A stretch of 64,000 nucleotides of DNA from Elusimicrobiota bacterium. Lineage in GTDB: Bacteria; Elusimicrobiota; Elusimicrobia; UBA1565. Positions 773-60,721 of this stretch are shown one piece after another (position 1 is the first letter of the stretch; each line of letters begins with the position of its first letter). The notes beneath the pieces are model-generated. The model saw only the letters and a program-made list of their open reading frames with translations. It was not told the origin of the DNA and did no database searches. Where the stretch lies: the NCBI GenBank assembly GCA_041661185.1, contig JBAZUV010000004.1, positions 9,987 through 73,986 on the forward strand. The letters are read 5' to 3'. Both the position numbers and the translations under genes were made by a program.

Positions 773-950
773 CGTCATTCCGGCGGAAACCGTAATCCAG
801 GAACTATCGTCGGCTGGACCCCGGCCTCCGCCGGGGTGACAAAAAAACGTCATCCCAGCGGAAGCTGGGATCCAGGTTCCTGGGTCCCGGGTCAAGCCCG
901 GGATGACGACGGGGTTTCGTCTTTCCGGCGGAGGCCGGAACCCAGGGACT
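773..950. repeat. Cluster of ~28-bp GC-rich hairpin units in alternating orientation (REP/BIME-like), cluster 1
   Basis: Units match GTCATYCCGGCGRAAGCCGGGAYCCAGG and its reverse complement five times. Each unit folds into an ~8-bp stem with a GNRA or GAA loop. Confidence 0.6.
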
Positions 951-973
951 GCCGTCGACGGATAGGTAAGAGG

Positions 974-14432: not shown

Positions 14433-14512
14433 GGTGCCAGGCGTCAACTTGATTGAAATTCAACTTGCTCGGCCGAGCAAGTTGAATTTCAATCAAGTTG
14501 ACGCCTGGCACC
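14433..14512. repeat. 80-bp perfect palindromic element (copy 1) with GGTGCCAGG / CCTGGCACC termini
   Basis: ggtgccaggcgtcaacttgattgaaattcaacttgctcgg|ccgagcaagttgaatttcaatcaagttgacgcctggcacc is exactly self-complementary and identical to 59681-59760. It lies between the pseudouridine synthase and the kinase genes. Confidence 0.8.
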
Positions 14513-14533
14513 GGCATTCGGCATACTGGCGGC

Positions 14534-18800: not shown

Positions 18801-21800
18801 GCGCTTGAAGCGGCCGTCCAATGCCGGCCCCACCGAAGAGTAGAACGCGGTCTCCGGTACGCCGTCGTCGAGGCTTTTGGCCGCGGCGCCCACGTCGATC
18901 ATGTTCCGGGCGTTGGCGGGCTGGCTCAAGGTCTTATTGAACGGACCCGCGTTCCCGCTCGATCCCGTGCCGATGAGCGGCTCCCCGGAAGCGCTCTTCT
19001 GCTCCAAGAGATGCGAGAAAAACTCAGCCAAGGGCGCATCGCTGTCCCCGGGACTGCCGAGGCTGACGCTGACGACGTCCGAACCCCACTTCATGGCATC
19101 CACGGCCGCGGCCATGATGTCGCCGTCGGAAGCGCCCTGCCCGGCCTGGGAGAAGACCTTGCCCATGCGTCCCTCGGCCGCGGGCGCCATGCCCTTGTAA
19201 AGAGGCCCGTTGGCATAGGAGATGCCGGCCTTATGCGTGCCGTGCCCGCTCCAATCCTCGGGTCCCTCGCCCACGAAATCGATGCACTGCAGGATGCGGT
19301 CCGCGAAATCAGGATGCGTCACATCGAGCCCGGTGTCGATATCGTAGATGCGTCCGCCTTCGCCCCGGATGCGGAGCTTCCAGACCGGCACGACGTCCTG
19401 GATGATCCCGCTCTCGAGGAGCTGGACGCGGTAGCCTCCGCGGGAAGCTCCGAAGCGCACGCCGCGCGCGCCGGAAAGCCGCTTGAGCACCTTCGAGTAG
19501 GCCTTGAGCACGCTGACATAGATGCGGTTGTCTCCCACGTCCCGGCCGAAGACATGTCGGACCCGCAAGCCCGCCTGGACGAAGCGCGCGCGCTCCTGGT
19601 CGTTGAAGCCGAAGGAGCGCAGAAGATCGTCCTGGGCCGGCGCGGAAGGGTCCGTATCGAGGTTGAGCTGCGAATGAGGAAGGCTCACCCCTTTGGCGGG
19701 AGTCAGCCACAGGTTCAGGCGCGGCTCCATCTTTCGCGCCACGATCACGTGCCCGCCCTCGGCAAGGTCCACGCGCTGGACCTGGAACTCGCCGTTGTCC
19801 GAGGAAGTCCAGAACCGGAAAACCCTTTCGACCAGCGCGACTCCGGGATCGGAGGAATGGAAAGGAAGGAGCACGATCCCATGGTCCTGCAGCCCCGCGT
19901 ACAAAGCCTGCAAATAGTCTGCCAGGCCCACGTCCTGGAGCTGGGTCCCGGAGAACTCGTTCATCATCTTGTTCAAGGCCGCGGAGACTCCCTCGACCGA
20001 TCCATTGCCCCCCACATGCACTCCGATGTTGTCGCCCAGAGTCTTCAATCGCAGAGCCAGCGGCCCGCCGGACTTGAACCCTTCGCGCGAGCTCGAGCGG
20101 TTGCGCTGTTCGAGCCGATAGGCCTCGTCGATGGAGCGCAGGGCCTGCTCAAGCCGTCGGTTCTCCGCGGAGTCCTCCAAAGGCAAGGAGAGATGGACGT
20201 TCGGGAGCACGATCACCCGGTAGCGGCCGGCATGCTCGGGCGCCTGGAGGAGCCTCTTGAGCTCCGAAGGCTCCACGCGGGCGTTCTCCCGGGATGCGAA
20301 CCCGGTCATGTCCGCAGGATCGGCGACCACGAGCCCTTTCTCCGGCAGACCGGTATAAAGACCCCGCACGCGCGCCCGTCCCTCGGAGAGCACGTCATAG
20401 GCCGAGGGGTTCAGGAGCTCCGAGCTGGAAGGCTCGACGATGAGCACGGGATAAGGAGCCCCCAGACGCAGGGAGACCTGCGCCTCCTTCAAGACGCGTT
20501 CGAGCACCGGGATGCGCAAGGACTTGAGCCACTGCCGGCTGTGCCATTCCCCGGCGCGGGCCAAGGCCTCGTCGCTCAGTCCGCGGAAGAATCCCCCGAG
20601 TCCCTTGCTGCGCCGAGCCAAGGGTTCGCGCCGGCCGTTCTGCAGATAATGCCCCATCTCGTGCTTGAGCACGGCCTGGAAGAGCCCGGGCGCGCGCGCA
20701 AGCTCGGGCCGCAGATAGATCGCATCGCCCTGCGACACGCCGAAAGCGAAACCGGAGAAGCGCCCCCTCTGCGGCCGGTAGATCCGCAGGATGCCGCGGC
20801 CGGGAGCGTATCCCAGCAATCCGGAGATCACGCTCGGATGCAGGCCCATCTCCAGGAGCTGGGCTTTGGCGAAATCCCAGAACTCGCGGTCCGAGATATC
20901 GGCCCGAAAGAAAACAGCCCAAGAGAACACGGCAAGGTCATAGAGCGCCCAGCCTGAGAAGACCGCGCCCATCACCCCCGCGGCCGCCATCGTGACCCGC
21001 AAAGGCTCCGCGAACGCGGCAAGAGCCTCCACCAGCCAGGGGGAGTGGATCAGCGCCGCATGCGCAAGGACCCAGCCGGACCCAAAGAACACGGCTGCGG
21101 CCGTTATGAAAACCGCGGCCGACAACGCCGCCAGCACCGCCGGGAACAGCACTCTGCGATACCGGATCTCCTGCTGCGCGGACTTCCGAGCCGCAAGCGC
21201 CGGGACCTGCCCGGAAGTCCGGCCCGCGCCTACAACTCCGTCATCCCGGTCCACGTCTACAACTCCGTCATCCCGGCTGACGACAGCGCCCTGCTCGTCA
21301 TTCCGGCGAAAGCCGGAATCCAGGATAAGGCTGGACCCCGGGTCAAGCCCGGGGTGACGACGGCCGACTGCACCCCGCCCTTCGCCGGGAGTCTGAATCT
21401 CCAGACCCCCTGCTTGGCCAAGTTCTCCTTGCCCGCCGAGACGGCGCGTGAAATCCTCGGCCGCGGCCTGCTGGGAAGCTTCGATCCCTCCATCCGCAGC
21501 CTGATCCAAGAATGAAGACGGCCCGCGCAGAGCCTTCCATAAACGCCCGGCTCCGCGGACGAACAAACGCACGACCCCTTTGCTCGCTTCATCCTTGCGG
21601 CCAACTTCGTCATCTCTGCTCGCGTCTACAACTCCGTCATCCCGGCGAAAGCCGGGACCCAGCAGTAGCCTGGACCCCGGGTCAAGCCCGGGGTGACGAG
21701 AGTAAAGGGTCTTGCCATTCACTGCGCCGGAAGCTTCCTGCTTATCGGGAAAGATCTCCATCTTTGGGACATCCACAGATACGCCCACGCCTGAACCCGC

Positions 21801-23346: not shown

Positions 23347-23470
23347 CGTCATCCCGGCGAAAACCGGGACCCAGCCATCCGTCTCCCCGGCGAAAGCCGG
23401 GGTCCAGCTGATCCTAGATCCCGGCTTCCGCCGGGATGACGGCCTTACCGGCTCTCGCCGGAATGACGGG
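23347..23470. repeat. GC-rich GNRA-hairpin cluster 4
   Basis: gtcatcccggcgaaaaccgggacccag, ccccggcgaaagccggggtccag, ccggcttccgccgggatgac, ctctcgccggaatgac. Confidence 0.6.
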
Positions 23471-24582: not shown

Positions 24583-24645
24583 CGTCATCCCGGCGGAAGC
24601 CGGGACCCAGCAGTTGCCTGGACCCCGGCTTTCGCCGGGGTGACG
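24583..24645. repeat. GC-rich GNRA-hairpin cluster 5 (inverted pair)
   Basis: gtcatcccggcggaagccgggacccag-cagttgc-ctggaccccggctttcgccggggtgac. Confidence 0.6.
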
Positions 24646-24658
24646 ATGACGCGCCGCA

Positions 24659-29233: not shown

Positions 29234-29656
29234 TTAGGAGCCTGTCGGGCCGGTGGCGTCGATGTCCAACTCGATGCCTCCGCAGACGGAACTGAAGGCG
29301 TTATAGAGCGCCGCCACCACGAGGATAAGCGCGTCCATGAGCACCATATAAAGGACGGTGAATAGCAGCGTGGAGAGCAGCTTATAGCCGAAGGACATGC
29401 CGACCGTGTTCACGTTGGGCATGAGCACGAAGGTGACCAGCCCGCCGAAAAAACCCAGGCAGCCCAACACGCCCGTGAGCACCGGCTTGGCGGCCATGAT
29501 CACTCCGACGGACATGAGCACCGCGCCGCCCGCGGCCACCGGCAGGATCCCCCGAGCATAGCCGAACGCAGCGGCCAAGGCGCCGATGACTCCAAGTCCG
29601 ATGACCACGGGCCCCGGCTTCCAGAACGGATCGATCCTGCGGATGTGATAGCTCAT
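29234..29656 (-). CDS. Small integral membrane protein (4 predicted TM)
   Basis: 140 aa of hydrophobic helices (VVIGLGVIGALAAAF..., LTGVLGCLGFFGGLVTFVL..., LILVVAALYNAF). Confidence 0.55.
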   Translation of the reverse strand: MSYHIRRIDPFWKPGPVVIGLGVIGALAAAFGYARGILPVAAGGAVLMSVGVIMAAKPVLTGVLGCLGFFGGLVTFVLMPNVNTVGMSFGYKLLSTLLFTVLYMVLMDALILVVAALYNAFSSVCGGIELDIDATGPTGS

Positions 29657-29744
29657 CGTCCCTCCAAAAACTGAAAATAGCGCGTCCTACCCATGTTTTT
29701 TAGCAGTTAATCGCCTTTTTCGCAAGTAGAAAGGCTCTCGACAT

Positions 29745-29896
29745 CACCCACTTTTTCCGGCGGGTCCTGGAGCCGAGGGGAAACACCCTCCCTTCCCCCG
29801 CGCCCCTGGGAACTGGTTCCCCCCAAGCCGTGGGGCCCCCTTCACGGGAGCTGGAGGGTGTTTCCCCTCGGCTCCACCCGCCGTTTTCATTGGGTG
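29745..29896. repeat. MITE-like structured element, copy A (TIR cgacatcaccc / gggtgatgtcg; conserved core cttcccccgcgcccctgggaac..gttcccc...ggggccccc.tcacgggagc)
   Basis: It shares its architecture and core with 50156-50347 and 50456-50650. The inner stem ggagccgaggggaaacaccctcc / ggagggtgtttcccctcggctcc covaries with the other copies. Confidence 0.65.
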
Positions 29897-30005
29897 ATGT
29901 CGATTTGTGTGCGTGGGTAATACCCAAGGAAGGCCGCAGCTTTGGAGGTTCTTCTTCCCCGTTGAAAAGAGGCCTGGACTCCCGACATCGCCGAGCAACG
30001 AGACA

Positions 30006-31649
30006 TCACCGGATAGGCACGGCGGTCTCCAGGGCCCAGAAGGCGAAGGCTGGACTCTCTCTGCGGAGCGCGAGCCGCCGCACGCCGAAGCGGCGCAATC
30101 GCCCTGCGACCGAGGAGACCGCCTGAGGCTCCCTCAAGGTCACGACCACATCCGTCCTGCGGTCGATCTTCTTGAGCTGCTCAATGAGGACGACGCCGCC
30201 CGTTATCTCCGAACGGGGGATCCCGGTGCGCAGGGACTTATAATGAGGATCCGAATAAAGCCAGATGGGCGGACGTATCCACCACTGCATCGGGCCGCTG
30301 GCCCCGTCGGAAGCCACGATCAGGCGGCTGTTCTCGTCCTGGACGGCGGCGATGTCCTCGGGCGCGGCGAAGTTCCCCTCTTGGATGAGCGCCTCCAGCC
30401 GAAAACTCTCCCAGGCCGAAACCGCCATAAGGAAAAGAAGCCCAAGTACTATCCGCAGCCTCCATGCCCGAGAATCGATCCAACGCGACCGGAAAGCCTC
30501 CAGGGTCCCCGCGAGCAGCAGCACATAGCCGAGTCCGATGTACCATTGGTGATAATGGTGGCTGAAGCTGAGATTGCGGAACACCGTGATCCACGCCAGC
30601 CCGGAGAAAAGAGAGATCCCGCCGAGCGCCGCCAAAGGCGTCCGCAAAAAACGCCGCGCTCCCGCGCACCAGCCAAGGACAAGGACCGCCAAAAGCGCCA
30701 TGCCCGTCCGGGAGAAATTCATGCCCAAGAACCCCCACTGGCTCTTCATCCAGCCCAGCAAGGTCAGAGCGCTCATATCTTTGTTCATGCGGTAGAGCGC
30801 CTGGCTCTGCGCGACCTTCCCGCTGAACCCCAGGTGGTAGAGTATCCAAACGTTCAGCAGCATGCTGACGACGCCGACCGCCAGGAGGCCGTACAGGAAT
30901 CTCCGGTCCTCGCGCGGCCGGGTCGAGAACAGGTACGCCCAAAGTCCGACGCCCACGGCGTAAACCGCCCACTCGGCCTGAAAGAGCAAGAAGAACGCCG
31001 CCAAGAAAGCGATCCTCCGGAGCCGGCTCCCATCGAGTCTCATGGCCAGGCAATAGTTGAGCAAGACCACGAACGTCGCCACGATCTCGTGCTTCCAGGC
31101 ATCCTGATAATTGAAGTTCAGCGGCAAAACGACATAAAGGAAGGTCAGCGCCGCCGAAAGCTCCACGCTGCCCAGAACGCCGCGCAGCAGCAGGAAAAGA
31201 AGGACCGTGATCCCCATTGAGAAGAGCAGCGCGAAGCTCCGCGGGACCCAATGCTCGAAGCCCGCCGCGCCCGCATACGCCCTATAGAGCGTCGAGGCCA
31301 AGACCGGATGATGCGAGTAATGCTGCAGCCCAGTCTCCCGCCCGGACTCATCGTACGCATACCGAGTAAGCCCGAACACCTTCCAAGGATCCGACACCGC
31401 CGGATCCAAGGAATGCATCGCCATCAGCGTAAAATAAGCGTCATCCGCCGTCCAATGCGCCCGCCCCTCAAGGAATGGCTTATTGATCCGCGGCAACGAG
31501 ATGAGCAGCTGCAGGAACACTATTCCCGCGACAAACAGAACCCCTCGATGCCTTGAGATTTTTTCAATCACATCGGATGCCCATTCACTTGAGATGATAC
31601 AAGGCATAGCCGTCCTGCCCTGCCGCCCGAAGCTCCAGCCCATATCCAT
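30006..31649 (-). CDS. Polytopic membrane glycosyltransferase (PMT_2/ArnT-like, GT39/GT83-type); start uncertain
   Basis: 547 aa with ~11 TM helices, a periplasmic loop after TM1 carrying DDAYF, and a C-terminal soluble domain. The ORF start overlaps the upstream gene by 65 nt, so an internal start is likely. Confidence 0.55.
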   Translation of the reverse strand: MDMGWSFGRQGRTAMPCIISSEWASDVIEKISRHRGVLFVAGIVFLQLLISLPRINKPFLEGRAHWTADDAYFTLMAMHSLDPAVSDPWKVFGLTRYAYDESGRETGLQHYSHHPVLASTLYRAYAGAAGFEHWVPRSFALLFSMGITVLLFLLLRGVLGSVELSAALTFLYVVLPLNFNYQDAWKHEIVATFVVLLNYCLAMRLDGSRLRRIAFLAAFFLLFQAEWAVYAVGVGLWAYLFSTRPREDRRFLYGLLAVGVVSMLLNVWILYHLGFSGKVAQSQALYRMNKDMSALTLLGWMKSQWGFLGMNFSRTGMALLAVLVLGWCAGARRFLRTPLAALGGISLFSGLAWITVFRNLSFSHHYHQWYIGLGYVLLLAGTLEAFRSRWIDSRAWRLRIVLGLLFLMAVSAWESFRLEALIQEGNFAAPEDIAAVQDENSRLIVASDGASGPMQWWIRPPIWLYSDPHYKSLRTGIPRSEITGGVVLIEQLKKIDRRTDVVVTLREPQAVSSVAGRLRRFGVRRLALRRESPAFAFWALETAVPIR

Positions 31650-38382: not shown

Positions 38383-38490
38383 CGTCACCCCGGGCTTGAC
38401 CCGGGGGCCAGGAGCACGGCCAAACGACTTCCCCTGGATCCCGGCTTCCGCCGGGATGACGAATTTATGGGCTTTCGCCGGGATGACGAG
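38383..38490. repeat. GC-rich hairpin cluster 6
   Basis: gtcaccccgggcttgacccggggg, ctggatcccggcttccgccgggatgac, gggctttcgccgggatgac. Confidence 0.6.
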
Positions 38491-47963: not shown

Positions 47964-48176
47964 GACACAGGTTCTACGCACACAAGAGAGTTTAATATCA
48001 GCCCTTTTCTGATTTGTTGATTCGCTGTTAAAAAGATGTTGCGCCGGCCCGTTCCTGAGGCCTGTCTGAATAATGGTATCAGCGCTCATAGGCTCGGGCA
48101 TGGGCCCTTCTGCTCACCCCTCCCCCGCCATAGGACCCACCAGAACCTAGGACCAAAGACTATCTGGTGCCTATCT

Positions 48177-48246
48177 GGTGCCAGGGGTCATTTTGTTCGC
48201 GTAACTTTCCGCGGAAAGTTACGCGAACAAAATGACCCCTGGCACC
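48177..48246. repeat. 70-bp perfect palindromic element sharing GGTGCCAGG / CCTGGCACC termini with the 80-bp elements
   Basis: ggtgccaggggtcattttgttcgcgtaactttccgcgg|aaagttacgcgaacaaaatgacccctggcacc is preceded by the tandem duplication ctatctggtgc-ctatctggtgc. Confidence 0.75.
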
Positions 48247-48247
48247 A

Positions 48248-50092
48248 TCAGCGAAGGAGGAAGCGTTTTAGGCTGGAGGACTGCTCGCCGGGGGCGGGGG
48301 CGGCCAAGGCCCAGAGTTCGAGATTCGAGCGCCCGTTCTCAACGGGAGCGAACACGAAGGAAAGGCTCTGCAAAGCCGAGGTGAAGGGGGCGTTCTTGGA
48401 CTGGACGAAGATCTTGCCTTCCAGGCGGAGCACGAGCAATTCGCGCGTCTTGGCGTCGTAGACCCAGAGCTCGCCGTTGTGCCAAGCCATGGCCCCGGGC
48501 ACAAGCTCGCGGTCCGAGTGATAATCCTCGGTCGCGGAATCCGCGCCTTCGCCCAAGTGCCGATAGAAGACGCGCGTGACCGCGTCATAGGACCAGAGAT
48601 TCTTGCCGTCGTGCGCGAGCGCCGTGGGCGCGGGCCCGGGCGTGGGCCAGACGTAGCGGATATCCGAGGGTTTGCCGAGCGCATGGCGCACGATGCGGCT
48701 CTGCGCGGAGTCGAGAGAATACATGCCGTCTCCTGAGAGCGCGAGCGCGGACGGATGATAGCTCCCCTCGGGCCGGACCTTGAAGCGTTCGATCACGCGC
48801 GAAGGATCGGCCGGATCGAGCAGCAGGAACTCCCCGTTCCAGTCGCAGACCCACAAGAGCGAGCCGTCATAAGCCATGGCCGTGGGCGTCGTGGAGGACA
48901 AAATCATCGACGAGATCGGCTTGACCGAAAGCAGGCGGCGCCATCGCATGACCGGGAACCAGGCTCCTGCCAGGACTCCTGCGATCAAGACTCCGGCGAT
49001 GATCGCGCGCCAAGGCCTGGCCGGCGCGCGCACGACTTCCACGGCCGGCGCAAGCGCCGCAGACGCCGCCGCAGGAGCAGACGCGGGCATGAAACGGCTG
49101 GAGGCATCGCGCATCCAGCTCGCGATGCGCTCTCCGGCCTCGGAGGACTTGCGCAAAGCCTCGGCCATCTGCGTGGCGTAGCGCGTCTCCCGGGACTCGA
49201 CATCCTGGAGCTGCGTGTGCCAGGTCTCGCGCTCCTTGCGAAGGCGCTCCTCCCAAGAGGTGAACTCCTGGCGCTGGGCCTCCCACGTGGAGCGCTCGCG
49301 ATCCCAGAGCTCCTGCCACTGCTTGCGCTCCTCCTGCCAGACATTCTCCATGCGCTGGAGACGATCCTCGGCCTCGCCCAGCCGCTTGACGGCTTCGGCG
49401 CGGGCCGTCTCGGCGGCCTCTCGGTCATGGCGCTCCTGCAGGAGTTCGGACAAGGTCTTCTCGACTACGCCCTTGGCCTGCTTGAGGTCCGCAGCGTCCT
49501 TGCGCGACTGCTCCTGCTGTCCGCCGCAGGAACGCTCCGCGCGCTCGGTTGACGAACGCAGTTCCTGCAGATCCAAAAGGTATTGCTGTTCCCGCTCGTT
49601 GAACTGCCGCTCCAACTCGCGAAAGCGCCCGGCCTCGGCGGCCAAACGCGCATGCGCCTGCTCGGCCATGGCGCGCAGGGTGCTGCGCTCCTCGTCGAAG
49701 CGCGCCTCCTGGGCCTTGAAGGCCTTCTGCGCCTGTTCGAGCTGCACGGAAAGATCGAAGGTCTTCTGATAGACGACGGAGTCGTCGCGCTGGGCCCTGC
49801 GCCGCAAGGCCGTGAGCTCCTGCTCGGATGAAGCGAGCCTCTCGCGCAGCTCGCGCAAAGCCAGCTCCTTGGCGTCGACGAGCCGGCGGAAATCATCGAG
49901 GCGGCCGCGATGCCGATTCTTCATCCACTCGAAGGTCTCCATGGAGACCTCGCTGGTGATGGAGGGTTCCTCAAAGGACGCGGGCATGCCCAAGGACGGC
50001 GCGCTCATGCCAGGGGCCTCCGGCATCCCGGAGGTCACGCGCGACCAGAGCCCGTCGAGCTCTTTCTGGAGGTCGTCCGAATTCATAGGCAT
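48248..50092 (-). CDS. Bitopic membrane protein: cytoplasmic coiled-coil (~330 aa), one TM, periplasmic beta-propeller-like repeats
   Basis: Long heptad-rich segments (LRELRERLASSEQELTALRRRAQ...), TM AIIAGVLIAGVLAGAWFPV, and C-terminal repeats with W/Y-x-YD (LLWVCDWNGEFLLLD, LWSYDAVTRVFYRH, LWVYDAKTRELLVL). Confidence 0.6.
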   Translation of the reverse strand: MPMNSDDLQKELDGLWSRVTSGMPEAPGMSAPSLGMPASFEEPSITSEVSMETFEWMKNRHRGRLDDFRRLVDAKELALRELRERLASSEQELTALRRRAQRDDSVVYQKTFDLSVQLEQAQKAFKAQEARFDEERSTLRAMAEQAHARLAAEAGRFRELERQFNEREQQYLLDLQELRSSTERAERSCGGQQEQSRKDAADLKQAKGVVEKTLSELLQERHDREAAETARAEAVKRLGEAEDRLQRMENVWQEERKQWQELWDRERSTWEAQRQEFTSWEERLRKERETWHTQLQDVESRETRYATQMAEALRKSSEAGERIASWMRDASSRFMPASAPAAASAALAPAVEVVRAPARPWRAIIAGVLIAGVLAGAWFPVMRWRRLLSVKPISSMILSSTTPTAMAYDGSLLWVCDWNGEFLLLDPADPSRVIERFKVRPEGSYHPSALALSGDGMYSLDSAQSRIVRHALGKPSDIRYVWPTPGPAPTALAHDGKNLWSYDAVTRVFYRHLGEGADSATEDYHSDRELVPGAMAWHNGELWVYDAKTRELLVLRLEGKIFVQSKNAPFTSALQSLSFVFAPVENGRSNLELWALAAPAPGEQSSSLKRFLLR

Positions 50093-50155
50093 AGAAGCAT
50101 CCCGAAAAAAGAGTAACAGGCTTCCTCAGGATTTCTATGAAGGAATTGTTGCGGC

Positions 50156-50347
50156 TCGACCTCGCCCATTTTTCCTGACGGGTGGAGCAGAGGGAGAAGT
50201 CCCTCCCTTCCCCCGCGCCCCTGGGAACTCCGTTCCCCCCGATCCCGTCGTTGGAGCGATCCGGGACCCATTGGGGCCCCCCTCCACGGGAGCGGGAGGG
50301 ACTCCTCCCTCTGCTCCACCCTCCGTTTCTTAGGGCGAGGTCGAATT
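50156..50347. repeat. MITE-like structured element, copy B (forward)
   Basis: TIR ctcgacctcgcccat / agggcgaggtcgaa, the same conserved core as copy A, and an inner stem ggagcagagggagaagtccctcc / ggagggactcctccctctgctcc. Confidence 0.65.
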
Positions 50348-50455
50348 TTGATGCGTGAAGTGGACTCAAGGAAAGCCGGTGCTGAAACTTCCGTATCCCC
50401 GGGTGCTGGAAACGGCTTGACTGAGGCTTTCCTCAACGAACAGCCCCTATCTCCA

Positions 50456-50650
50456 GACTCGACCTCACCCATCAGAACAGCGGGAGGCGCGCAGGGGATG
50501 CACTCTCCCGCTCCCGTAGAGGGGGGCCCCGCCATCGCCCGAATTGCTCACACCGCGGGTTTGGGGGGAACTGGTTCCCAGGGGTGCGGGGGAAGGGAGA
50601 GTGCATCCACTGAGCGTCGGGTCCCGCCAGAAAAATGGGTGAGGTCGAGG
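50456..50650. repeat. MITE-like structured element, copy C (reverse orientation)
   Basis: Its reverse complement aligns to copies A/B: ctcgacctcacccatttttctggcggg...cttcccccgcacccctgggaaccagttcccccc...ggggcccccctctacgggagcggg...gggtgaggtcgag. The inner stem gatgcactctcc/ggagagtgcatc is compensatory. Confidence 0.65.
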
Positions 50651-52060
50651 TTAACGCCGCTGCAGGCGCTGGTACTCGAGATTGGCCTCGCCGAGGTCCA
50701 CTTCCGTTCCCTTGTAGTCGGCCAGGATGCGCTTGAGGCGCTCGGCCAGCACCAGTTCGGACGCGCCCTGAAGCTTGAGGTCCTGATAGGCGCGCCAATC
50801 ATCGGAGAACCTGAGCTTCACATCCGCCCGGCGCAGGCGTTCCTGCTCCTCCTGCATCTTCTCAAGCTTGCGCTGGGCCTCGACCCGGCGCCGCTCCATG
50901 GCCTTGAGTTGGATCTCCCGCTCCAAAAGCCTGGCCCTGAGTTCAGCCTCTCCCCGACCCGCGGCATCCTCCGCGGACTGCTTGCGCAGGGCTTCCATCT
51001 CCTCGCGCAGGAGCTTGAGCTCCTCGGCCAGGCGCCACTGCTTGAGCTCCGCGGATTCCAAGGCCTTGCCCAGCTCCCGGCGGGAAGACATCTCGGATTT
51101 AAGCAGGGTCTCGTACTCCGTCTCCGGGTTCCAGGAGCCGAAGCGCCAGCTCATGCTCACGACATGGCTCCAGCGCGTGCCGCTCGAAAGCGGGATGCGC
51201 AGGGCATAATCCACTCGCGCGCCCAGACGCTTGAATCCCGCGCCCAAGCTCCAGGAGCGCGCCAAGCCTCCGAGCGTGAGTCCGCTCCTGGCCAGGAAGG
51301 TGCCGAAGCCCGCGGTGCTCCAGGAGCACTCGCTGGCCAAGGTCGCGGCATAGGCCGTACGCCGGCCCGAGGAAGGCTCTCTGCCCGCCCAGTCCATGAG
51401 GACCTTGTAGCGCCGGACCTGCTGGGCGAAACCGAAACGCATGGTGAGCGGCGCTCGGTCCGGGATCCCGGGAAGATCCAGGCGCGGAGCATTCAGATTG
51501 AGGAAGGAGAGTCCCAAGGAACGATCATCGGAAAGCTTAAGAGAAAAACCCAGGTCCCCGGCCGCGCGGGTCAAGCCTCCTCCCGTTCTTCGCCCCGAGC
51601 GGGAAAGCCCTCGGACGCCCACGCCCAGGTTCAGTATCGCGGGCCCGATCTCGCGCCAGTTGCGCGTGCCGTAGGCAAAGCCGAACTGCCGGTCCAAGGC
51701 CGTGTTCCCCAGGATATCGTGGGTCCAGTAGGCGGCTAAGCCGCCTTCGAGCGGCCCATGGAGCTGGGTCCCGGCCGCAGCAGTCATGCCCTCCATGTCC
51801 GTCTCCGCGGCCGCGGCATGGAAAAGCCTTCGCGCCGAGAGCTCCACGTCCGTGCGTTCCAGGGAGCCGGCCGCGGCCGGATTGATGGACACGACCTCGG
51901 CATCGTCGGATAGAGCCGTCACCGCGTCGCCCAATCCGGCCGCGCGCGCGCCCAAACCCACGTCCTCGAAAGCCGCCCGCGCGGGCGCAGCAGCAGAGAG
52001 GAACGCAGCCATGAGTCCAAGTCTGATGTCCATTCCCCGCCGGCTCTTGATAAGACTCAT
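50651..52060 (-). CDS. Outer-membrane beta-barrel-like protein (same N-terminal motif family as 43588-44568) with C-terminal coiled-coil extension
   Basis: Signal peptide, then GLGARAAGLGDAVTALSDDAEVVSINPAAAG, and a ~130-aa Glu/Arg-rich heptad tail (LRKQSAEDAAGRGEAELRARLLEREIQLKAMERRRVEAQRKLEKMQEEQERLRR). Confidence 0.6.
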   Translation of the reverse strand: MSLIKSRRGMDIRLGLMAAFLSAAAPARAAFEDVGLGARAAGLGDAVTALSDDAEVVSINPAAAGSLERTDVELSARRLFHAAAAETDMEGMTAAAGTQLHGPLEGGLAAYWTHDILGNTALDRQFGFAYGTRNWREIGPAILNLGVGVRGLSRSGRRTGGGLTRAAGDLGFSLKLSDDRSLGLSFLNLNAPRLDLPGIPDRAPLTMRFGFAQQVRRYKVLMDWAGREPSSGRRTAYAATLASECSWSTAGFGTFLARSGLTLGGLARSWSLGAGFKRLGARVDYALRIPLSSGTRWSHVVSMSWRFGSWNPETEYETLLKSEMSSRRELGKALESAELKQWRLAEELKLLREEMEALRKQSAEDAAGRGEAELRARLLEREIQLKAMERRRVEAQRKLEKMQEEQERLRRADVKLRFSDDWRAYQDLKLQGASELVLAERLKRILADYKGTEVDLGEANLEYQRLQRR

Positions 52061-57556: not shown

Positions 57557-57665
57557 TCGTCATCCCGGCGAAAGCCGGGACCCAGGGACTGCCGTTCTGC
57601 CGTGATCCTGGATTCCGGCTTCCGCCGGAATGACGGCTGTAGGCTTCAGCCGGAATGACGTAACG
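57557..57665. repeat. GC-rich GNRA-hairpin cluster 7, flanked by fragments of the GGTGCCAGG palindromic family (57533-57551, 57680-57697)
   Basis: gtcatcccggcgaaagccgggacccagg, ctggattccggcttccgccggaatgac, cttcagccggaatgac. Nearby lie ttgacgccaggcgtcaa and gtgacgcctggcacc. Confidence 0.6.
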
Positions 57666-59680: not shown

Positions 59681-59760
59681 GGTGCCAGGCGTCAACTTGA
59701 TTGAAATTCAACTTGCTCGGCCGAGCAAGTTGAATTTCAATCAAGTTGACGCCTGGCACC
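59681..59760. repeat. 80-bp perfect palindromic element (copy 2), identical to 14433-14512
   Basis: It exactly fills the gap between the purA start and the neighbouring gene's stop. Confidence 0.8.
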
Positions 59761-59764
59761 GGGA

Positions 59765-60721
59765 TCACGGCAAAAGCCTCCGCCACCAAGGACTGCGGCC
59801 TCCTTTGGGCCGGATCTTGAAGCGCTCATCCTGGGCGCACACCGCATCCCCGCAAAGGCCCGCGGAGAACCGCACCCGCAGATGCACGCCGTCGGAACCG
59901 TTCTCCACGGATTCCACGGGGACGGGAAGCGGCGTCGATCCCTCGCCCGCATGCGTGCCGAAAAGCTTGGCCAGATACTGGGCTATGTCGCGGCTGTCCG
60001 TGATCGAAGTGAACACCACGTCCCCGGCGCGGATCTTCCCGGCCGGCGTACCGCCCCCATCAGGCTCCAAGGCCACGCGCAGGATCAAGGGGCCTGAACT
60101 GGCCCGCTCCGGTCCCGGTGCGCCGGCAGGCCCTTCGCCGGAACGGTGGCCGTTGGGACGGACCTCCTGGAACTGCCCCATATCCAGGAGCTCGGGCCGG
60201 AACTGAAGCTCGGCCTCGGCCAAACGAGCCGGGAATCCGGAGCGCAGGCGCTCCACGGCCGCGGACCCGGTCTTCGGCTTCTCCGAATAGAACTCCACGG
60301 CCTCGCTCGATGAGAAGAACTCGCTGAGCCGATGTTCGACTTCCTGGCTGAAGTCCGGAAGCGCGCCTGCCCACAGGCGGCAGGCATAGAGACGCCCCTC
60401 GAAATCGAACCAGTGCGCGTTCAAGTCCGCGGTGAACACGGCCGGGTTGCAGGAGACCACTGCCCGGGCGCGCAGAAGAGAGCGGTCCTTGAGATTGAGG
60501 ATGACCAGCCAGAGCCCGTAGAGCGTCTGCGCGTCCGCGCGGATGCGCCCCTTGAGCACAAGGATGTTCTGGAACAGCCTCGGCACGGCCTGCACCGCGG
60601 ACTGGAGGTCGTAGGCGCAAAGTTCGAGCGCGAGCTCCGCCTCGGCCCGGTCGCAGCCCGTCTCCTCCATAAGAAGGGCGATCTTATCCTGCACCGCGTC
60701 CTCGCGGGTGAGCCTTCTCAT
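59765..60721 (-). CDS. Hypothetical protein with UBA-like N-terminal helix bundle
   Basis: 318 aa; the N-terminal KIALLMEETGCDRAEAELALELCAYDLQSAV resembles UBA/EF-Ts-N-like domains, and the rest is unrecognised. The start overlaps the xer stop by 38 nt. Confidence 0.5.
   Translation of the reverse strand: MRRLTREDAVQDKIALLMEETGCDRAEAELALELCAYDLQSAVQAVPRLFQNILVLKGRIRADAQTLYGLWLVILNLKDRSLLRARAVVSCNPAVFTADLNAHWFDFEGRLYACRLWAGALPDFSQEVEHRLSEFFSSSEAVEFYSEKPKTGSAAVERLRSGFPARLAEAELQFRPELLDMGQFQEVRPNGHRSGEGPAGAPGPERASSGPLILRVALEPDGGGTPAGKIRAGDVVFTSITDSRDIAQYLAKLFGTHAGEGSTPLPVPVESVENGSDGVHLRVRFSAGLCGDAVCAQDERFKIRPKGGRSPWWRRLLP

What the first reader, a model, noticed from the sequence alone, without database searches (positions are those of the whole stretch)
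29745..29896. MITE-like repeat family whose internal stem covaries between copies, a candidate structured ncRNA (copy A)
Three copies share ~12-14 bp terminal inverted repeats (cgacMtcRccca...tgggYgaKgtcg) and conserved core blocks (CTTCCCCCGCRCCCCTGGGAAC-NN-GTTCCCC, GGGGCCCCCYTCYACGGGAGC). A stem just inside the termini has different sequences in each copy but keeps perfect complementarity: A ggagccgaggggaaacaccctcc/ggagggtgtttcccctcggctcc, B ggagcagagggagaagtccctcc/ggagggactcctccctctgctcc, C gatgcactctcc/ggagagtgcatc. Compensatory change of this kind is the hallmark of a functional RNA secondary structure, not of protein coding. All copies are intergenic.
Basis: seen in the sequence. Interest (0 to 1): 0.8.

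Follow-up and report, generated by a model that had tools for sequence, protein, structure and literature searches.

The report
Hairpin-forming miniature transposon (MITE) family
The three repeats are copies of a small, non-coding mobile DNA element (a MITE) that folds back on itself and is abundant in a few uncultivated Elusimicrobiota; its matching stem changes are real, but they show a palindromic transposon keeping its two arms alike, not a new RNA gene.

Summary
The window has three copies: A 29737-29904 (+), B 50155-50345 (+) and C 50458-50649 (-). Each has 13-14 nt terminal inverted repeats, shared core blocks and a long stem that differs between copies yet stays complementary.

Public data add 26 core-bearing copies, all from one metagenome. 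The same terminal repeat occurs in four other Elusimicrobia MAG species.

Four elements are flanked by perfect 8-bp direct duplications of differing sequence, against none in 200 shifted controls. Three of these are convergent pairs like B-spacer-C. The family is therefore a MITE, and the pair moves as one unit.

Covariation is strong: 18 pairs change on both sides. However:
- it also covers the terminal repeats;
- stem mismatches show no G-U preference on either strand;
- the "conserved core" is replaced entirely in other subfamilies;
- Rfam gives nothing, and no promoter or terminator was found.

An RNA gene is not supported. Palindrome upkeep at the DNA level is the simpler reading.

One unexpected extra: element ends sit 11-15 nt upstream of outward-facing sigma-70-like promoters far more often than chance.

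The parts
29737..29904 (+). Unit A (168 nt, A-type). 5' terminal repeat 29737-29750; T-rich loop; short stem GGCGGG 29759-29764 with CCCGCC 29877-29882; variable stem 29769-29791 with 29853-29875; core 29792-29852; 3' terminal repeat 29891-29904.
   Evidence: Sequence; fold z = -10.4; profile match E = 1e-39; 92.7% identical to L013 copy at a different locus.
29905..30008 (+). Tail of unit A: remnant of the inter-unit spacer, carrying the CAAGGAAGGCC motif. No partner unit is left. It ends at the stop codon of the 547-aa ORF (30006).
   Evidence: Aligns with the L013 and L010 spacers up to about 29984. Similarity up to about 30008 is by eye only.
29697..29725 (-). Weak sigma-70-like promoter of the 140-aa DUF3566 gene (29234-29656, minus strand). 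TTGCGA at 29720-29725, 17 nt spacer, TAAAAA at 29697-29702. It starts 11 nt outside the 5' terminal repeat of unit A and reads away from it.
   Evidence: Read by eye. It does not pass the consensus scan. The geometry matches 13 strong cases at other loci.
50155..50345 (+). Unit B (191 nt, B-type), left arm of the composite. Its 5' terminal repeat faces the 614-aa gene, whose start is at 50092.
50346..50457 (.). Conserved spacer of the composite (112 nt) between the two 3' terminal repeats. It carries AAGGAAAGCC and its inverted copy GGCTTTCCT.
   Evidence: Conserved along with the units in L001, L007 and L022.
50458..50649 (-). Unit C (192 nt, C-type), right arm of the composite, inverted relative to B. 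Its 5' terminal repeat begins one base after the TAA stop (50651-50653) of the 469-aa gene.
50155..50649 (.). The composite element: unit B, spacer, inverted unit C (495 bp). It is the repeat that recurs, and equivalent pairs at other loci carry target-site duplications. No duplication is left around this copy.
   Evidence: 91% identity over 451-503 bp to L022, L007 and L001. 8-bp duplications flank the equivalent pairs in L001 and L010.

Best explanation
These are copies of a non-autonomous DNA transposon (MITE) family found in a few uncultivated Elusimicrobiota.

Anatomy. The basic unit is 146-195 nt and forms a foldback:
- a 13-14 nt terminal inverted repeat (CTCGACCTCACCC);
- a T-rich internal loop on the same strand at both ends;
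- a short stem, then a long stem of 20-25 bp whose sequence is specific to each subfamily;
- a non-palindromic core.

Units usually come as convergent pairs of different subfamilies around a spacer of about 113 nt, giving a 440-495 bp composite. The window pair B-spacer-C is one such composite. Copy A is a pair that has lost its partner.

Shown:
- A transposase supplied in trans inserts the element with an 8-bp staggered cut. This follows from the 8-bp target duplications of differing sequence.
- Both composites and solo units have moved.

Inferred:
- The two arms of each unit, terminal repeats included, are kept complementary by a DNA-level process. Candidates are copying of one arm from the other when the palindrome folds during replication or transposition (template switching), or a need for a DNA hairpin in transposition. 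On this reading, single mutations are either left as mismatches or copied to the other arm. That would produce the observed mix of random-looking mismatches and many exact double changes.
- Insertion is aimed at, or survives only in, the few bases just upstream of the -35 hexamer of promoters.
For: Family and spread:
- 26 further core-bearing copies at 22 loci of one metagenome.
- The terminal repeat plus T-run occurs in 21 loci of four other Elusimicrobia MAG species. The 8 non-Elusimicrobia hits match the number expected by chance, which I estimated at about 9.
- The organism was assigned by PurA: 100% to a JGI protein, next best 71-73% to Elusimicrobia.

Mobility:
- Perfect 8/8 direct duplications flank the L001 pair (CCTTGAAT), the L010 pair (AAAATCCA), the L006 composite (ATAAAAAA) and the L009 solo unit (ACGAGTAG).
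- None of 200 shifted-flank control replicates gave an 8/8 match.
- The duplications all differ in sequence, so this is transposition and not site-specific recombination.
- The orthologous intergenic site in the nearest relative is 104 bp with no element.

No coding capacity is conserved: open frames differ between copies.

Same design with unrelated interiors:
- F-type: 146 nt, 21-bp perfect stem, different core.
- G-type, in another species.

Evolution of the arms:
- 18 pairs change on both sides. Two of these lie in the terminal repeats, for example CGACATC/GATGTCG in copy A.
- About nine independent exact double changes occur within subfamilies, several through transversions (read).
- Remaining mismatches show no wobble preference: about 4 G.T, 10 A.C and 12 other.

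A second, unrelated palindromic family in the window shows the same pattern of shared ends with different, perfectly self-complementary interiors. It is palindromic right through its centre, which an RNA hairpin cannot be.

Template switching is a documented one-step source of compensatory stem changes (PMC8794818).

Promoter adjacency:
- 13 of 54 outer ends have an outward TTGAC-type -35, 16-18 nt spacer and TAnnnT -10 starting 11-15 nt from the end.
- None starts at 0-10 or 16-29 nt (binomial P about 8e-30).
Against: - No autonomous parent element or transposase carrying these terminal repeats was found. Only fragments of the relevant genomes were available.
- Only 4 of about 20 complete elements still show a duplication, and none of the window copies does.
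- In subfamilies A-E the two core blocks are better conserved than the terminal repeats. Within subfamilies they are 98% and 97% identical, against about 89-92% for the terminal repeats. A neutral MITE interior does not predict this. It points to a constrained function of the core, or to homogenisation by recombination. Mosaic copies such as L012 do exist.
- The DNA-level explanation for arm matching is an inference. No tool here can separate it from selection on a single-stranded DNA or RNA hairpin.
- The empty-site comparison is to a distant relative, with 63% protein identity.
Confidence: 0.8

Rival explanations
1. The units are, or have become, functional structured RNAs. This could be either an independent small RNA gene family or a cis-acting structure in the 3' or 5' untranslated regions of flanking genes. 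In that case the stem is kept by selection on RNA folding and the conserved core is the active part.
For: - Strong covariation in the long stem.
- Core blocks more conserved than stems and terminal repeats within subfamilies A-E.
- Very stable folds.
- A T-rich loop on the same strand at both ends, which is a strand-specific feature.
- Precedent: bcr1 repeats are transcribed and show compensatory changes (PMC3184786).
- Elements lie between a stop codon and the next promoter, so read-through transcripts would contain them.
Against: - No Rfam match.
- No promoter or terminator signal in or beside the window copies.
- Predicted core pairs never vary, so there is no covariation support for a core structure.
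- The core is absent from the F, G and H types, which keep the same ends and foldback.
- The core pattern was found in no genome among 185,579 species representatives and in only one metagenome.
- Mismatches are not wobble-biased.
- Covariation extends into the transposase-type terminal repeats.
- Units occur in both orientations relative to flanking genes, as convergent pairs.
Confidence: 0.15
2. The host has co-opted the element as a DNA-level or transcription-level module placed just upstream of promoters. It could act as an insulator or terminator against read-through from the upstream gene in a genome with almost no intergenic space, or as a common upstream binding platform that links many promoters.
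For: - The fixed position 11-15 nt upstream of -35 hexamers in at least 13 cases across two or more species.
- Pre-insertion gaps between stop codon or terminator and the -35 were only 3-17 nt in the cases that could be reconstructed.
- In the unit's + orientation the hairpin is followed by a modest T-run.
- Convergent pairs would block transcription from both sides.
- The core blocks are conserved.
Against: - T-runs are weak, and no terminator-like site passes the scan. The G-type has no T-run.
- Downstream genes are unrelated housekeeping genes (ClpC-, HrcA-, FeoB-, pilin- and RimP-like, judged by eye), so no shared regulon is evident.
- A fixed distance is explained more simply by target choice than by benefit.
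- Nothing was tested experimentally.
Confidence: 0.15
3. The elements are hairpin repeats moved as single-stranded DNA by a tyrosine (Y1/HUH) transposase. That would make them REPIN/RAYT-type or IS200/IS605-derived palindromic elements, not classical MITEs.
For: - Long hairpins whose arms evolve in concert; compensatory changes are common in REPINs (PMC3116915).
- Pairs of inverted units.
- Intergenic location.
Against: - 8-bp target duplications of variable sequence flank four elements. From my own knowledge of these families, REPINs and IS200/IS605 elements make no such duplication and have no terminal inverted repeats of this kind.
- Units are 146-195 nt, much longer than REP sequences.
Confidence: 0.03

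Closest known systems
bcr1 repeats of the Bacillus cereus group (about 155-bp MITE-like elements)
   Same: Small, dispersed, intergenic and flanked by short direct repeats. Predicted to fold into a long double-stranded structure, with compensatory base changes between copies (as summarised in PMC3184786).
   Different: bcr1 has 5-bp duplications; these have 8-bp ones. There is no sequence similarity. bcr1 is known to be transcribed, whereas nothing is known here. No convergent-pair composites or promoter-proximal position are described for bcr1 in the text I read.
Correia (NEMIS) and ERIC-type palindromic MITEs of Neisseria and enterobacteria
   Same: From my own knowledge: 100-170 bp elements with terminal inverted repeats, many copies next to genes, folding into long hairpins when co-transcribed, with reported effects on neighbouring gene expression.
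   Different: From my own knowledge, those families duplicate TA. These duplicate 8 bp. Terminal repeat sequences are unrelated. The modular design here, with the same ends but interchangeable stems and cores and pairs of unlike subfamilies, is not a described feature of those families.
REPINs (REP doublets forming hairpins, moved by RAYT transposases)
   Same: Two inverted repeats plus a spacer form a hairpin. Compensatory changes across the hairpin are common. The doublet, not the singlet, is the replicating unit (PMC3116915).
   Different: Elements here have variable 8-bp target duplications and 13-14 nt terminal inverted repeats on each unit. Units are 5-6 times longer than a REP. No RAYT gene was seen.
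Nezha and other IS-derived cyanobacterial MITEs
   Same: Terminal inverted repeats, flanking direct repeats, very stable predicted folds, and filled versus empty sites between related genomes (PMC3184786).
   Different: For Nezha a parent IS with matching ends (ISNpu3) is known. Here no parent was found.

Membership tests
MITE (non-autonomous DNA transposon) | Small size, below about 500 bp | tested here: met
   Units are 146-195 nt and composites 438-495 bp.
MITE (non-autonomous DNA transposon) | Terminal inverted repeats | tested here: met
   CTCGACCTCACCC / GGGTGAGGTCGAG at both ends of every unit, with 95.7% of cells paired.
MITE (non-autonomous DNA transposon) | Target-site duplications of fixed length and variable sequence | tested here: met
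   Four perfect 8-bp duplications with four different sequences; 0 in 200 control replicates. None is left around the window copies.
MITE (non-autonomous DNA transposon) | No transposase gene inside | tested here: met
   There is no room for one, and open frames are not conserved between composites.
MITE (non-autonomous DNA transposon) | Many dispersed copies at unrelated, mostly intergenic sites | tested here: met
   29 core-bearing copies with different flanks, plus 21 loci in four other MAG species.
MITE (non-autonomous DNA transposon) | A parent insertion sequence with the same terminal repeats | tested here: inconclusive
   No pair of ends enclosing a transposase gene was found in the DNA held. 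The ORF next to the L049 end is an HNH-type protein. The full length of the high-copy H-type is unknown because contigs break inside it.
MITE (non-autonomous DNA transposon) | Filled versus empty sites between related genomes | tested here: inconclusive
   The orthologous gap in the nearest relative is 104 bp with no element, but that relative is distant at 63% protein identity.
Structured non-coding RNA family | Match to a described RNA family | tested here: not met
   No hit at gathering score in the whole window. Only generic hairpin hits appear far below threshold.
Structured non-coding RNA family | Covariation supporting the structure | tested here: inconclusive
   Strong in the long stem and present in the terminal repeats, but none in the core helices. 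A DNA palindrome gives the same signal.
Structured non-coding RNA family | Strand-specific signature, with G-U tolerated and A-C avoided on the RNA strand | tested here: not met
   About 4 G.T, 10 A.C and 12 non-wobble independent mismatch events.
Structured non-coding RNA family | Conserved unpaired core across the family | tested here: not met
   Conserved within subfamilies A-E but replaced by unrelated sequence in the F, G and H types. The core pattern is absent from 185,579 species genomes.
Structured non-coding RNA family | Own promoter and terminator, and a discrete transcript | tested here: inconclusive
   No promoter-like or terminator-like site in or beside the window copies by the consensus scans. 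Expression cannot be tested with these tools.
REPIN / IS200-IS605-type hairpin elements | Insertion without target duplication, moved by a Y1 transposase | tested here: not met
   8-bp duplications are present. No Y1 transposase gene was looked for beyond the ORFs scanned.
Intrinsic terminator | G+C-rich hairpin directly followed by a T-run | tested here: not met
   No site passes the scan in 29600-30100 or 50050-50750. T-runs after the short stem have only 3-4 T.

The most novel reading that the evidence does not exclude
The family is a bacterial DNA transposon that chooses its target relative to promoters. On this reading it integrates with its 8-bp duplication 3-7 bp upstream of the -35 hexamer of sigma-70-type promoters, so the terminal repeat ends 11-15 nt from TTGAC.

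One possible mechanism is that the transposase reads CTTGAC as a pseudo-end, because it resembles its own terminal CTCGAC/CTTGAC.

In addition, the element's arms would be actively homogenised by intramolecular templated repair. Every insertion would then place a 150-500 bp hairpin module directly upstream of a housekeeping promoter.
Probability: 0.4. Interest if true: 0.65.

Novelty: new member of a known kind. Interest (0 to 1): 0.4.

Why it matters
As an RNA discovery it does not hold up. This is a useful caution: covarying stems in a multi-copy palindromic repeat do not by themselves indicate an RNA gene.

As a mobile element it is an undescribed MITE family from a poorly studied phylum, with three features worth a specialist's attention:
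- It has a modular build. The ends are constant, while stems and cores are interchangeable, and units pair with unlike subfamilies.
- Its arms clearly evolve in concert, terminal repeats included. That makes it a natural data set for separating templated palindrome correction from selection.
- It sits at a very regular distance from promoter -35 hexamers. If this reflects target choice, I know of no bacterial DNA transposon reported to aim at promoters in this way, and the family would be a ready-made marker of promoters in genomes that cannot be cultured.

Tried and rejected
- Rfam on the whole window at gathering score, and on both loci at E up to 10: nothing meaningful.
- Core pattern in the species-representative genomes: 0 hits.
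- Terminal-repeat pattern in viral contigs: one hit, which is a chance match inside AT-rich coding DNA.
- The composite against plasmids (blastn): no match.
- Fetching the source contig by exact protein look-up (PurA, P0001, P0121): not on record. No same-species polymorphism test was therefore possible.
- Promoter and terminator scans inside and beside the window copies: none.
- Conserved small ORF in the core or spacer: start codons and frames are not conserved, and frames without stops occur at about the rate expected for 70% G+C.
- A first count of stem mismatches suggested an A.C excess, which would mean G-U on the minus orientation. It was inflated by false "pairs" in the core and by inherited mismatches. 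The count on the structural alignment shows no convincing bias.
- A...C as the ends of a 20.9-kb composite transposon (29737-50649): no matching flanks (read).
- Integron attC sites, retron RNA, CRISPR and IS110 bridge RNA were considered and dropped. No integrase array, reverse transcriptase, spacer array or IS110 gene is nearby, and variable 8-bp duplications do not fit them.
- Parent transposase: not found in the DNA held. The ORF beside one orphan end is an HNH-type protein.
- The other palindromic family in the window is not next to promoter-like sites, but with only 3 copies the test has low power.

Full report
**1. What is in the window**

The three copies were read directly:
- Unit A, 29737-29904 (+)
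- Unit B, 50155-50345 (+)
- Unit C, 50458-50649 (-)

The core block CTTCCCCCGCRCCCCTGGGAAC occurs exactly three times, with none expected by chance. The second block also occurs three times, though copy A carries a 1-nt deletion.

Every unit starts with CTCGACMTCRCCCA and ends with its inverted complement. Inside these ends come a T-rich stretch on the same strand at both ends, a short stem (GGCGGG/CCCGCC), a long stem and a non-palindromic core.

B has one A.C mismatch, and C's stem continues beyond the quoted 12 bp with mismatches.

Each unit folds into one long hairpin far more stable than shuffled sequence, with z = -10.4, -8.8 and -6.6. All copies are intergenic:
- A lies between a 547-aa ORF and a DUF3566 / response-regulator operon.
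- B and C lie between a 469-aa and a 614-aa ORF. All of these are on the minus strand.

**2. The repeat is larger than the finding**

Similarity continues past the 3' terminal repeat. B and C are inverted relative to each other, 112 nt apart.

The whole 495-bp block, B then spacer then inverted C, is itself a repeat. It is 91% identical over 451-503 bp to blocks at three other loci.

Copy A is followed by about 80-100 nt that align with the spacer of pairs elsewhere, but its partner unit is gone.

**3. More copies, and the organism**

Rfam gives nothing at gathering score. At relaxed thresholds only generic miRNA-hairpin models match, far below their cut-offs.

The core pattern is absent from one genome per 185,579 species. 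It occurs at 22 loci, 26 copies, all in a single metagenome, Ga0172379, and always with different flanks.

PurA from the window is 100% identical to a JGI protein and otherwise 71-73% identical to Elusimicrobia MAG proteins. The host is therefore an uncultivated member of Elusimicrobiota with no close sequenced relative.

By stem sequence, the copies fall into subfamilies A to E.

Beside D- and A-type units there is a sixth type, F, of 146 nt. It has the same ends, T-rich loops and short stem, and a perfect 21-bp long stem of different sequence. Its core is short and completely different.

A scan with the terminal repeat plus T-run found 29 loci. Of these, 21 belong to four other Elusimicrobia MAG species. 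The 8 others match the number expected by chance, which I estimated at about 9.

In MAG JACQWX01 two further types share only the ends:
- G-type is a 200-nt foldback with unrelated stems (z = -5.9).
- H-type is so abundant and uniform that 13 or more contigs break 137-140 nt into it.

The features common to the whole family are therefore the ends and the foldback design, not the core.

**4. It is mobile DNA**

I compared the 8 nt outside every plausible pair of ends. Four elements have perfect 8/8 direct duplications:
- the L001 pair (CCTTGAAT)
- the L010 pair (AAAATCCA)
- an L006 composite (ATAAAAAA)
- the L009 solo unit (ACGAGTAG)

In 200 control replicates with shifted flanks no 8/8 match occurred, and 7/8 occurred 0.4 times per replicate.

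The duplications differ in sequence, so this is transposition with an 8-bp staggered cut and not site-specific recombination. Three of the four are composites, so the pair moves as one unit. Solo units can move too.

No ORF is conserved inside.

The nearest relative I could fetch has 63% identity for the 614-aa protein and the same gene order. Its intergenic gap is 104 bp with no element.

No parent transposase was found in the DNA available.

Small size, terminal inverted repeats, target duplications, lack of coding capacity and many dispersed copies together define a MITE.

**5. The covariation, and what it means**

On 23 complete units:
- The consensus structure has 45 pairs, and 94.5% of cells are paired, against 45-55% when partners are slid by 1-3 columns.
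- Eighteen pairs show changes on both sides, against 2-8 when slid.
- No shuffle out of 500 reaches the observed values.

The complementarity is therefore actively maintained. Within subfamilies I count about nine independent exact double substitutions, several through transversions. Examples are L019 T:A to G:C, L022 B-type T:A to G:C, and F_L010 A:T to C:G.

Four observations argue against reading this as an RNA signature:
- The same concerted change affects the terminal repeats, such as CGACATC/GATGTCG in copy A and CGCCC/GGGCG in B.
- The predicted core helices never vary, so they carry no evidence.
- The remaining mismatches look like unfiltered mutations. After removing alignment artefacts there are about 4 G.T, 10 A.C and 12 non-wobble events. 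Neither strand shows the G-U tolerance typical of RNA. An earlier cruder count that suggested a bias was misleading.
- A second, unrelated repeat family in the same window behaves the same way. It has shared ends GGTGCCAGG...CCTGGCACC and different, perfectly self-complementary interiors. It is palindromic straight through its centre, which is a property of DNA symmetry and not of an RNA hairpin.

Compensatory changes have been reported before in bacterial mobile repeats, for bcr1 (PMC3184786) and REPINs (PMC3116915). Replication template switching can create and maintain perfect hairpin stems in one mutational step (PMC8794818).

My preferred reading is that one arm is repeatedly copied from the other when the palindrome folds. 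The alternative within the same reading is that a DNA hairpin is needed for movement. This step is inferred, not shown.

**6. What speaks for function**

In subfamilies A-E the two core blocks are the most conserved parts of the element.

| Region | Identity between subfamilies | Identity within subfamilies |
|---|---|---|
| Core blocks | 93% and 89% | 98% and 97% |
| Long stems | 63-66% | about 91% |
| Terminal repeats | 89% | 89-92% |

A neutral interior does not predict this. Either the core is a constrained cis-acting site or RNA/DNA motif, or it is homogenised by recombination.

Recombination clearly happens. Core variants are shared across C- and D-type stems, and L012 combines a B stem with a C/D core.

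The element also lies where read-through transcripts from the upstream gene would include it. A role once transcribed, as hairpin, processing site or weak terminator, cannot be excluded. I give it about 0.15.

An independent small RNA gene is unlikely. There is no promoter or terminator, no conservation of the core outside one lineage, and units occur in both orientations.

**7. An unexpected regularity**

Reading outward from the element ends, I noticed TTGACA-type hexamers at a constant distance. I then tested this formally:
- Among 54 outer ends in the Elusimicrobia loci and the window, 13 have a -35 (TTGAC or 5 of 6), a 16-18 nt spacer and a TAnnnT -10 pointing away from the element and starting 11-15 nt from the end.
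- None starts at 0-10 or 16-29 nt.
- The same pattern occurs only 93 times in 679,160 strand positions overall (binomial P about 8e-30).
- TTG occurs at 11-15 nt in 23 of the 54 ends.

The cases come from two or more species, including L027, L028, L037, L042 and L047.

Where the duplication is intact (L009, L010, L006), the -35 lies 3-4 nt beyond it. Window copy A has the same geometry with a weak promoter (TTGCGA, 17 nt, TAAAAA) in front of the DUF3566 gene. That promoter does not pass the scan.

Each element has two outer ends and only one can face the promoter, so these numbers imply that most insertions sit at this position. The genes downstream are unrelated housekeeping genes, judged by eye.

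There are two explanations:
- Target choice. CTTGAC resembles the element's own terminal CTCGAC/CTTGAC, so it may be read as a pseudo-end.
- Survival only in the tiny gaps between a stop codon or terminator and the next promoter. These gaps were 3-17 nt in the cases I could reconstruct.

I lean slightly to target choice because of the sharp peak, but I could not separate the two.

**8. Comparison with known systems**

The family works like a palindromic MITE (bcr1, Correia, ERIC, Nezha) and meets the defining features I could test.

It is not a REPIN or IS200/IS605-type element, because it makes 8-bp duplications and has terminal inverted repeats. It is not in Rfam, and no similar sequence exists in the plasmid collection.

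A literature search found nothing on MITEs in Elusimicrobia, and nothing on promoter-directed insertion of this kind.

From memory only, ends that begin 5'-CT and 8-9 bp duplications recall the IS4 family. That is a lead, not a test.

**9. Verdict**

- The "MITE-like" label is correct and is now backed by duplications.
- The "structured ncRNA" interpretation is not supported.
- The finding is a new member of a known kind of element.
- Its modular foldback build, the concerted evolution of its arms and its fixed position upstream of promoters make it moderately interesting.
- Interest is 0.4. The most novel reading still open, promoter-directed transposition, has a probability of about 0.4.

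Noticed in passing
L006, L009, L010, L011, L014, L016, L019, L021, L022, L027, L028, L037, L042, L047 (outer flanks of the elements); window 29697-29725: Outward-facing sigma-70-like promoters start 11-15 nt outside the terminal repeat in 13 of 54 ends. None starts at other distances up to 29 nt (P about 8e-30). The -35 lies 3-4 nt beyond the 8-bp duplication where that is intact.
   Followed up: partly
window 14433-14517, 59681-59765, 48176-48247: A second palindromic repeat family with shared ends GGTGCCAGG...CCTGGCACC and different, perfectly self-complementary interiors. Two 85-nt copies are 99% alike and palindromic through the centre. One 72-nt copy sits right after the 614-aa gene. None is next to a promoter-like site.
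   Followed up: partly
window 773-955, 21206-21702, 23347-23470, 24583-24647, 38429-38488, 57557-57637: REP-like short hairpin repeats (CGTCATCCCGGCGAAAGCCGGGACCCAG and partner CTGGACCCCGGGTCAAGCCCGGGGTGACGA) occur in arrays of 2-4 in several intergenic regions.
   Followed up: no
alignment of 23 units; L012 7421-7597: Stems and cores assort independently. Three variants of the middle core are shared between C- and D-type stems, and L012 joins a B-type stem to a C/D-type core. This points to recombination or gene conversion between subfamilies.
   Followed up: partly
L024, L027, L031, L035, L038, L039, L040, L042, L047, L048, L050 (MAG JACQWX01): Thirteen or more contigs end 137-140 nt into an identical repeat that begins with the same terminal repeat (H-type). 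It is a high-copy, recently active element whose full length, and possible transposase, the assembly does not show.
   Followed up: partly
units, minus orientation of the core, e.g. window 29785-29812 and 50200-50227 read on the opposite strand: The core is strongly strand-asymmetric, being C-rich on the unit's + strand. In A- and B-type units the opposite strand reads GGGGCGCGGGGGAAGGGAGGG, which is a canonical G-quadruplex-type run pattern overlapping the inner end of the long stem.
   Followed up: no
window 50155-50649: Because B and C are inverted relatives, the whole composite can also fold as a single 495-nt hairpin pairing B with C (-317.5 kcal/mol, z = -14.8), as an alternative to two separate unit hairpins.
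   Followed up: no
L053 3897-4000: In the nearest relative with conserved gene order, the gap corresponding to window 50093-50650 is 104 bp and has no element. A TATAAT box lies only 9 nt before the start codon, so the mRNA would have almost no leader.
   Followed up: partly
L009 4776-4985; L010 1800-2300; L006 840-1500: Before insertion, the distance from the upstream stop codon or terminator to the next -35 hexamer was only 3-17 nt. In L009 the 8-bp duplication includes the upstream gene's stop codon, which the insertion thereby preserved.
   Followed up: partly
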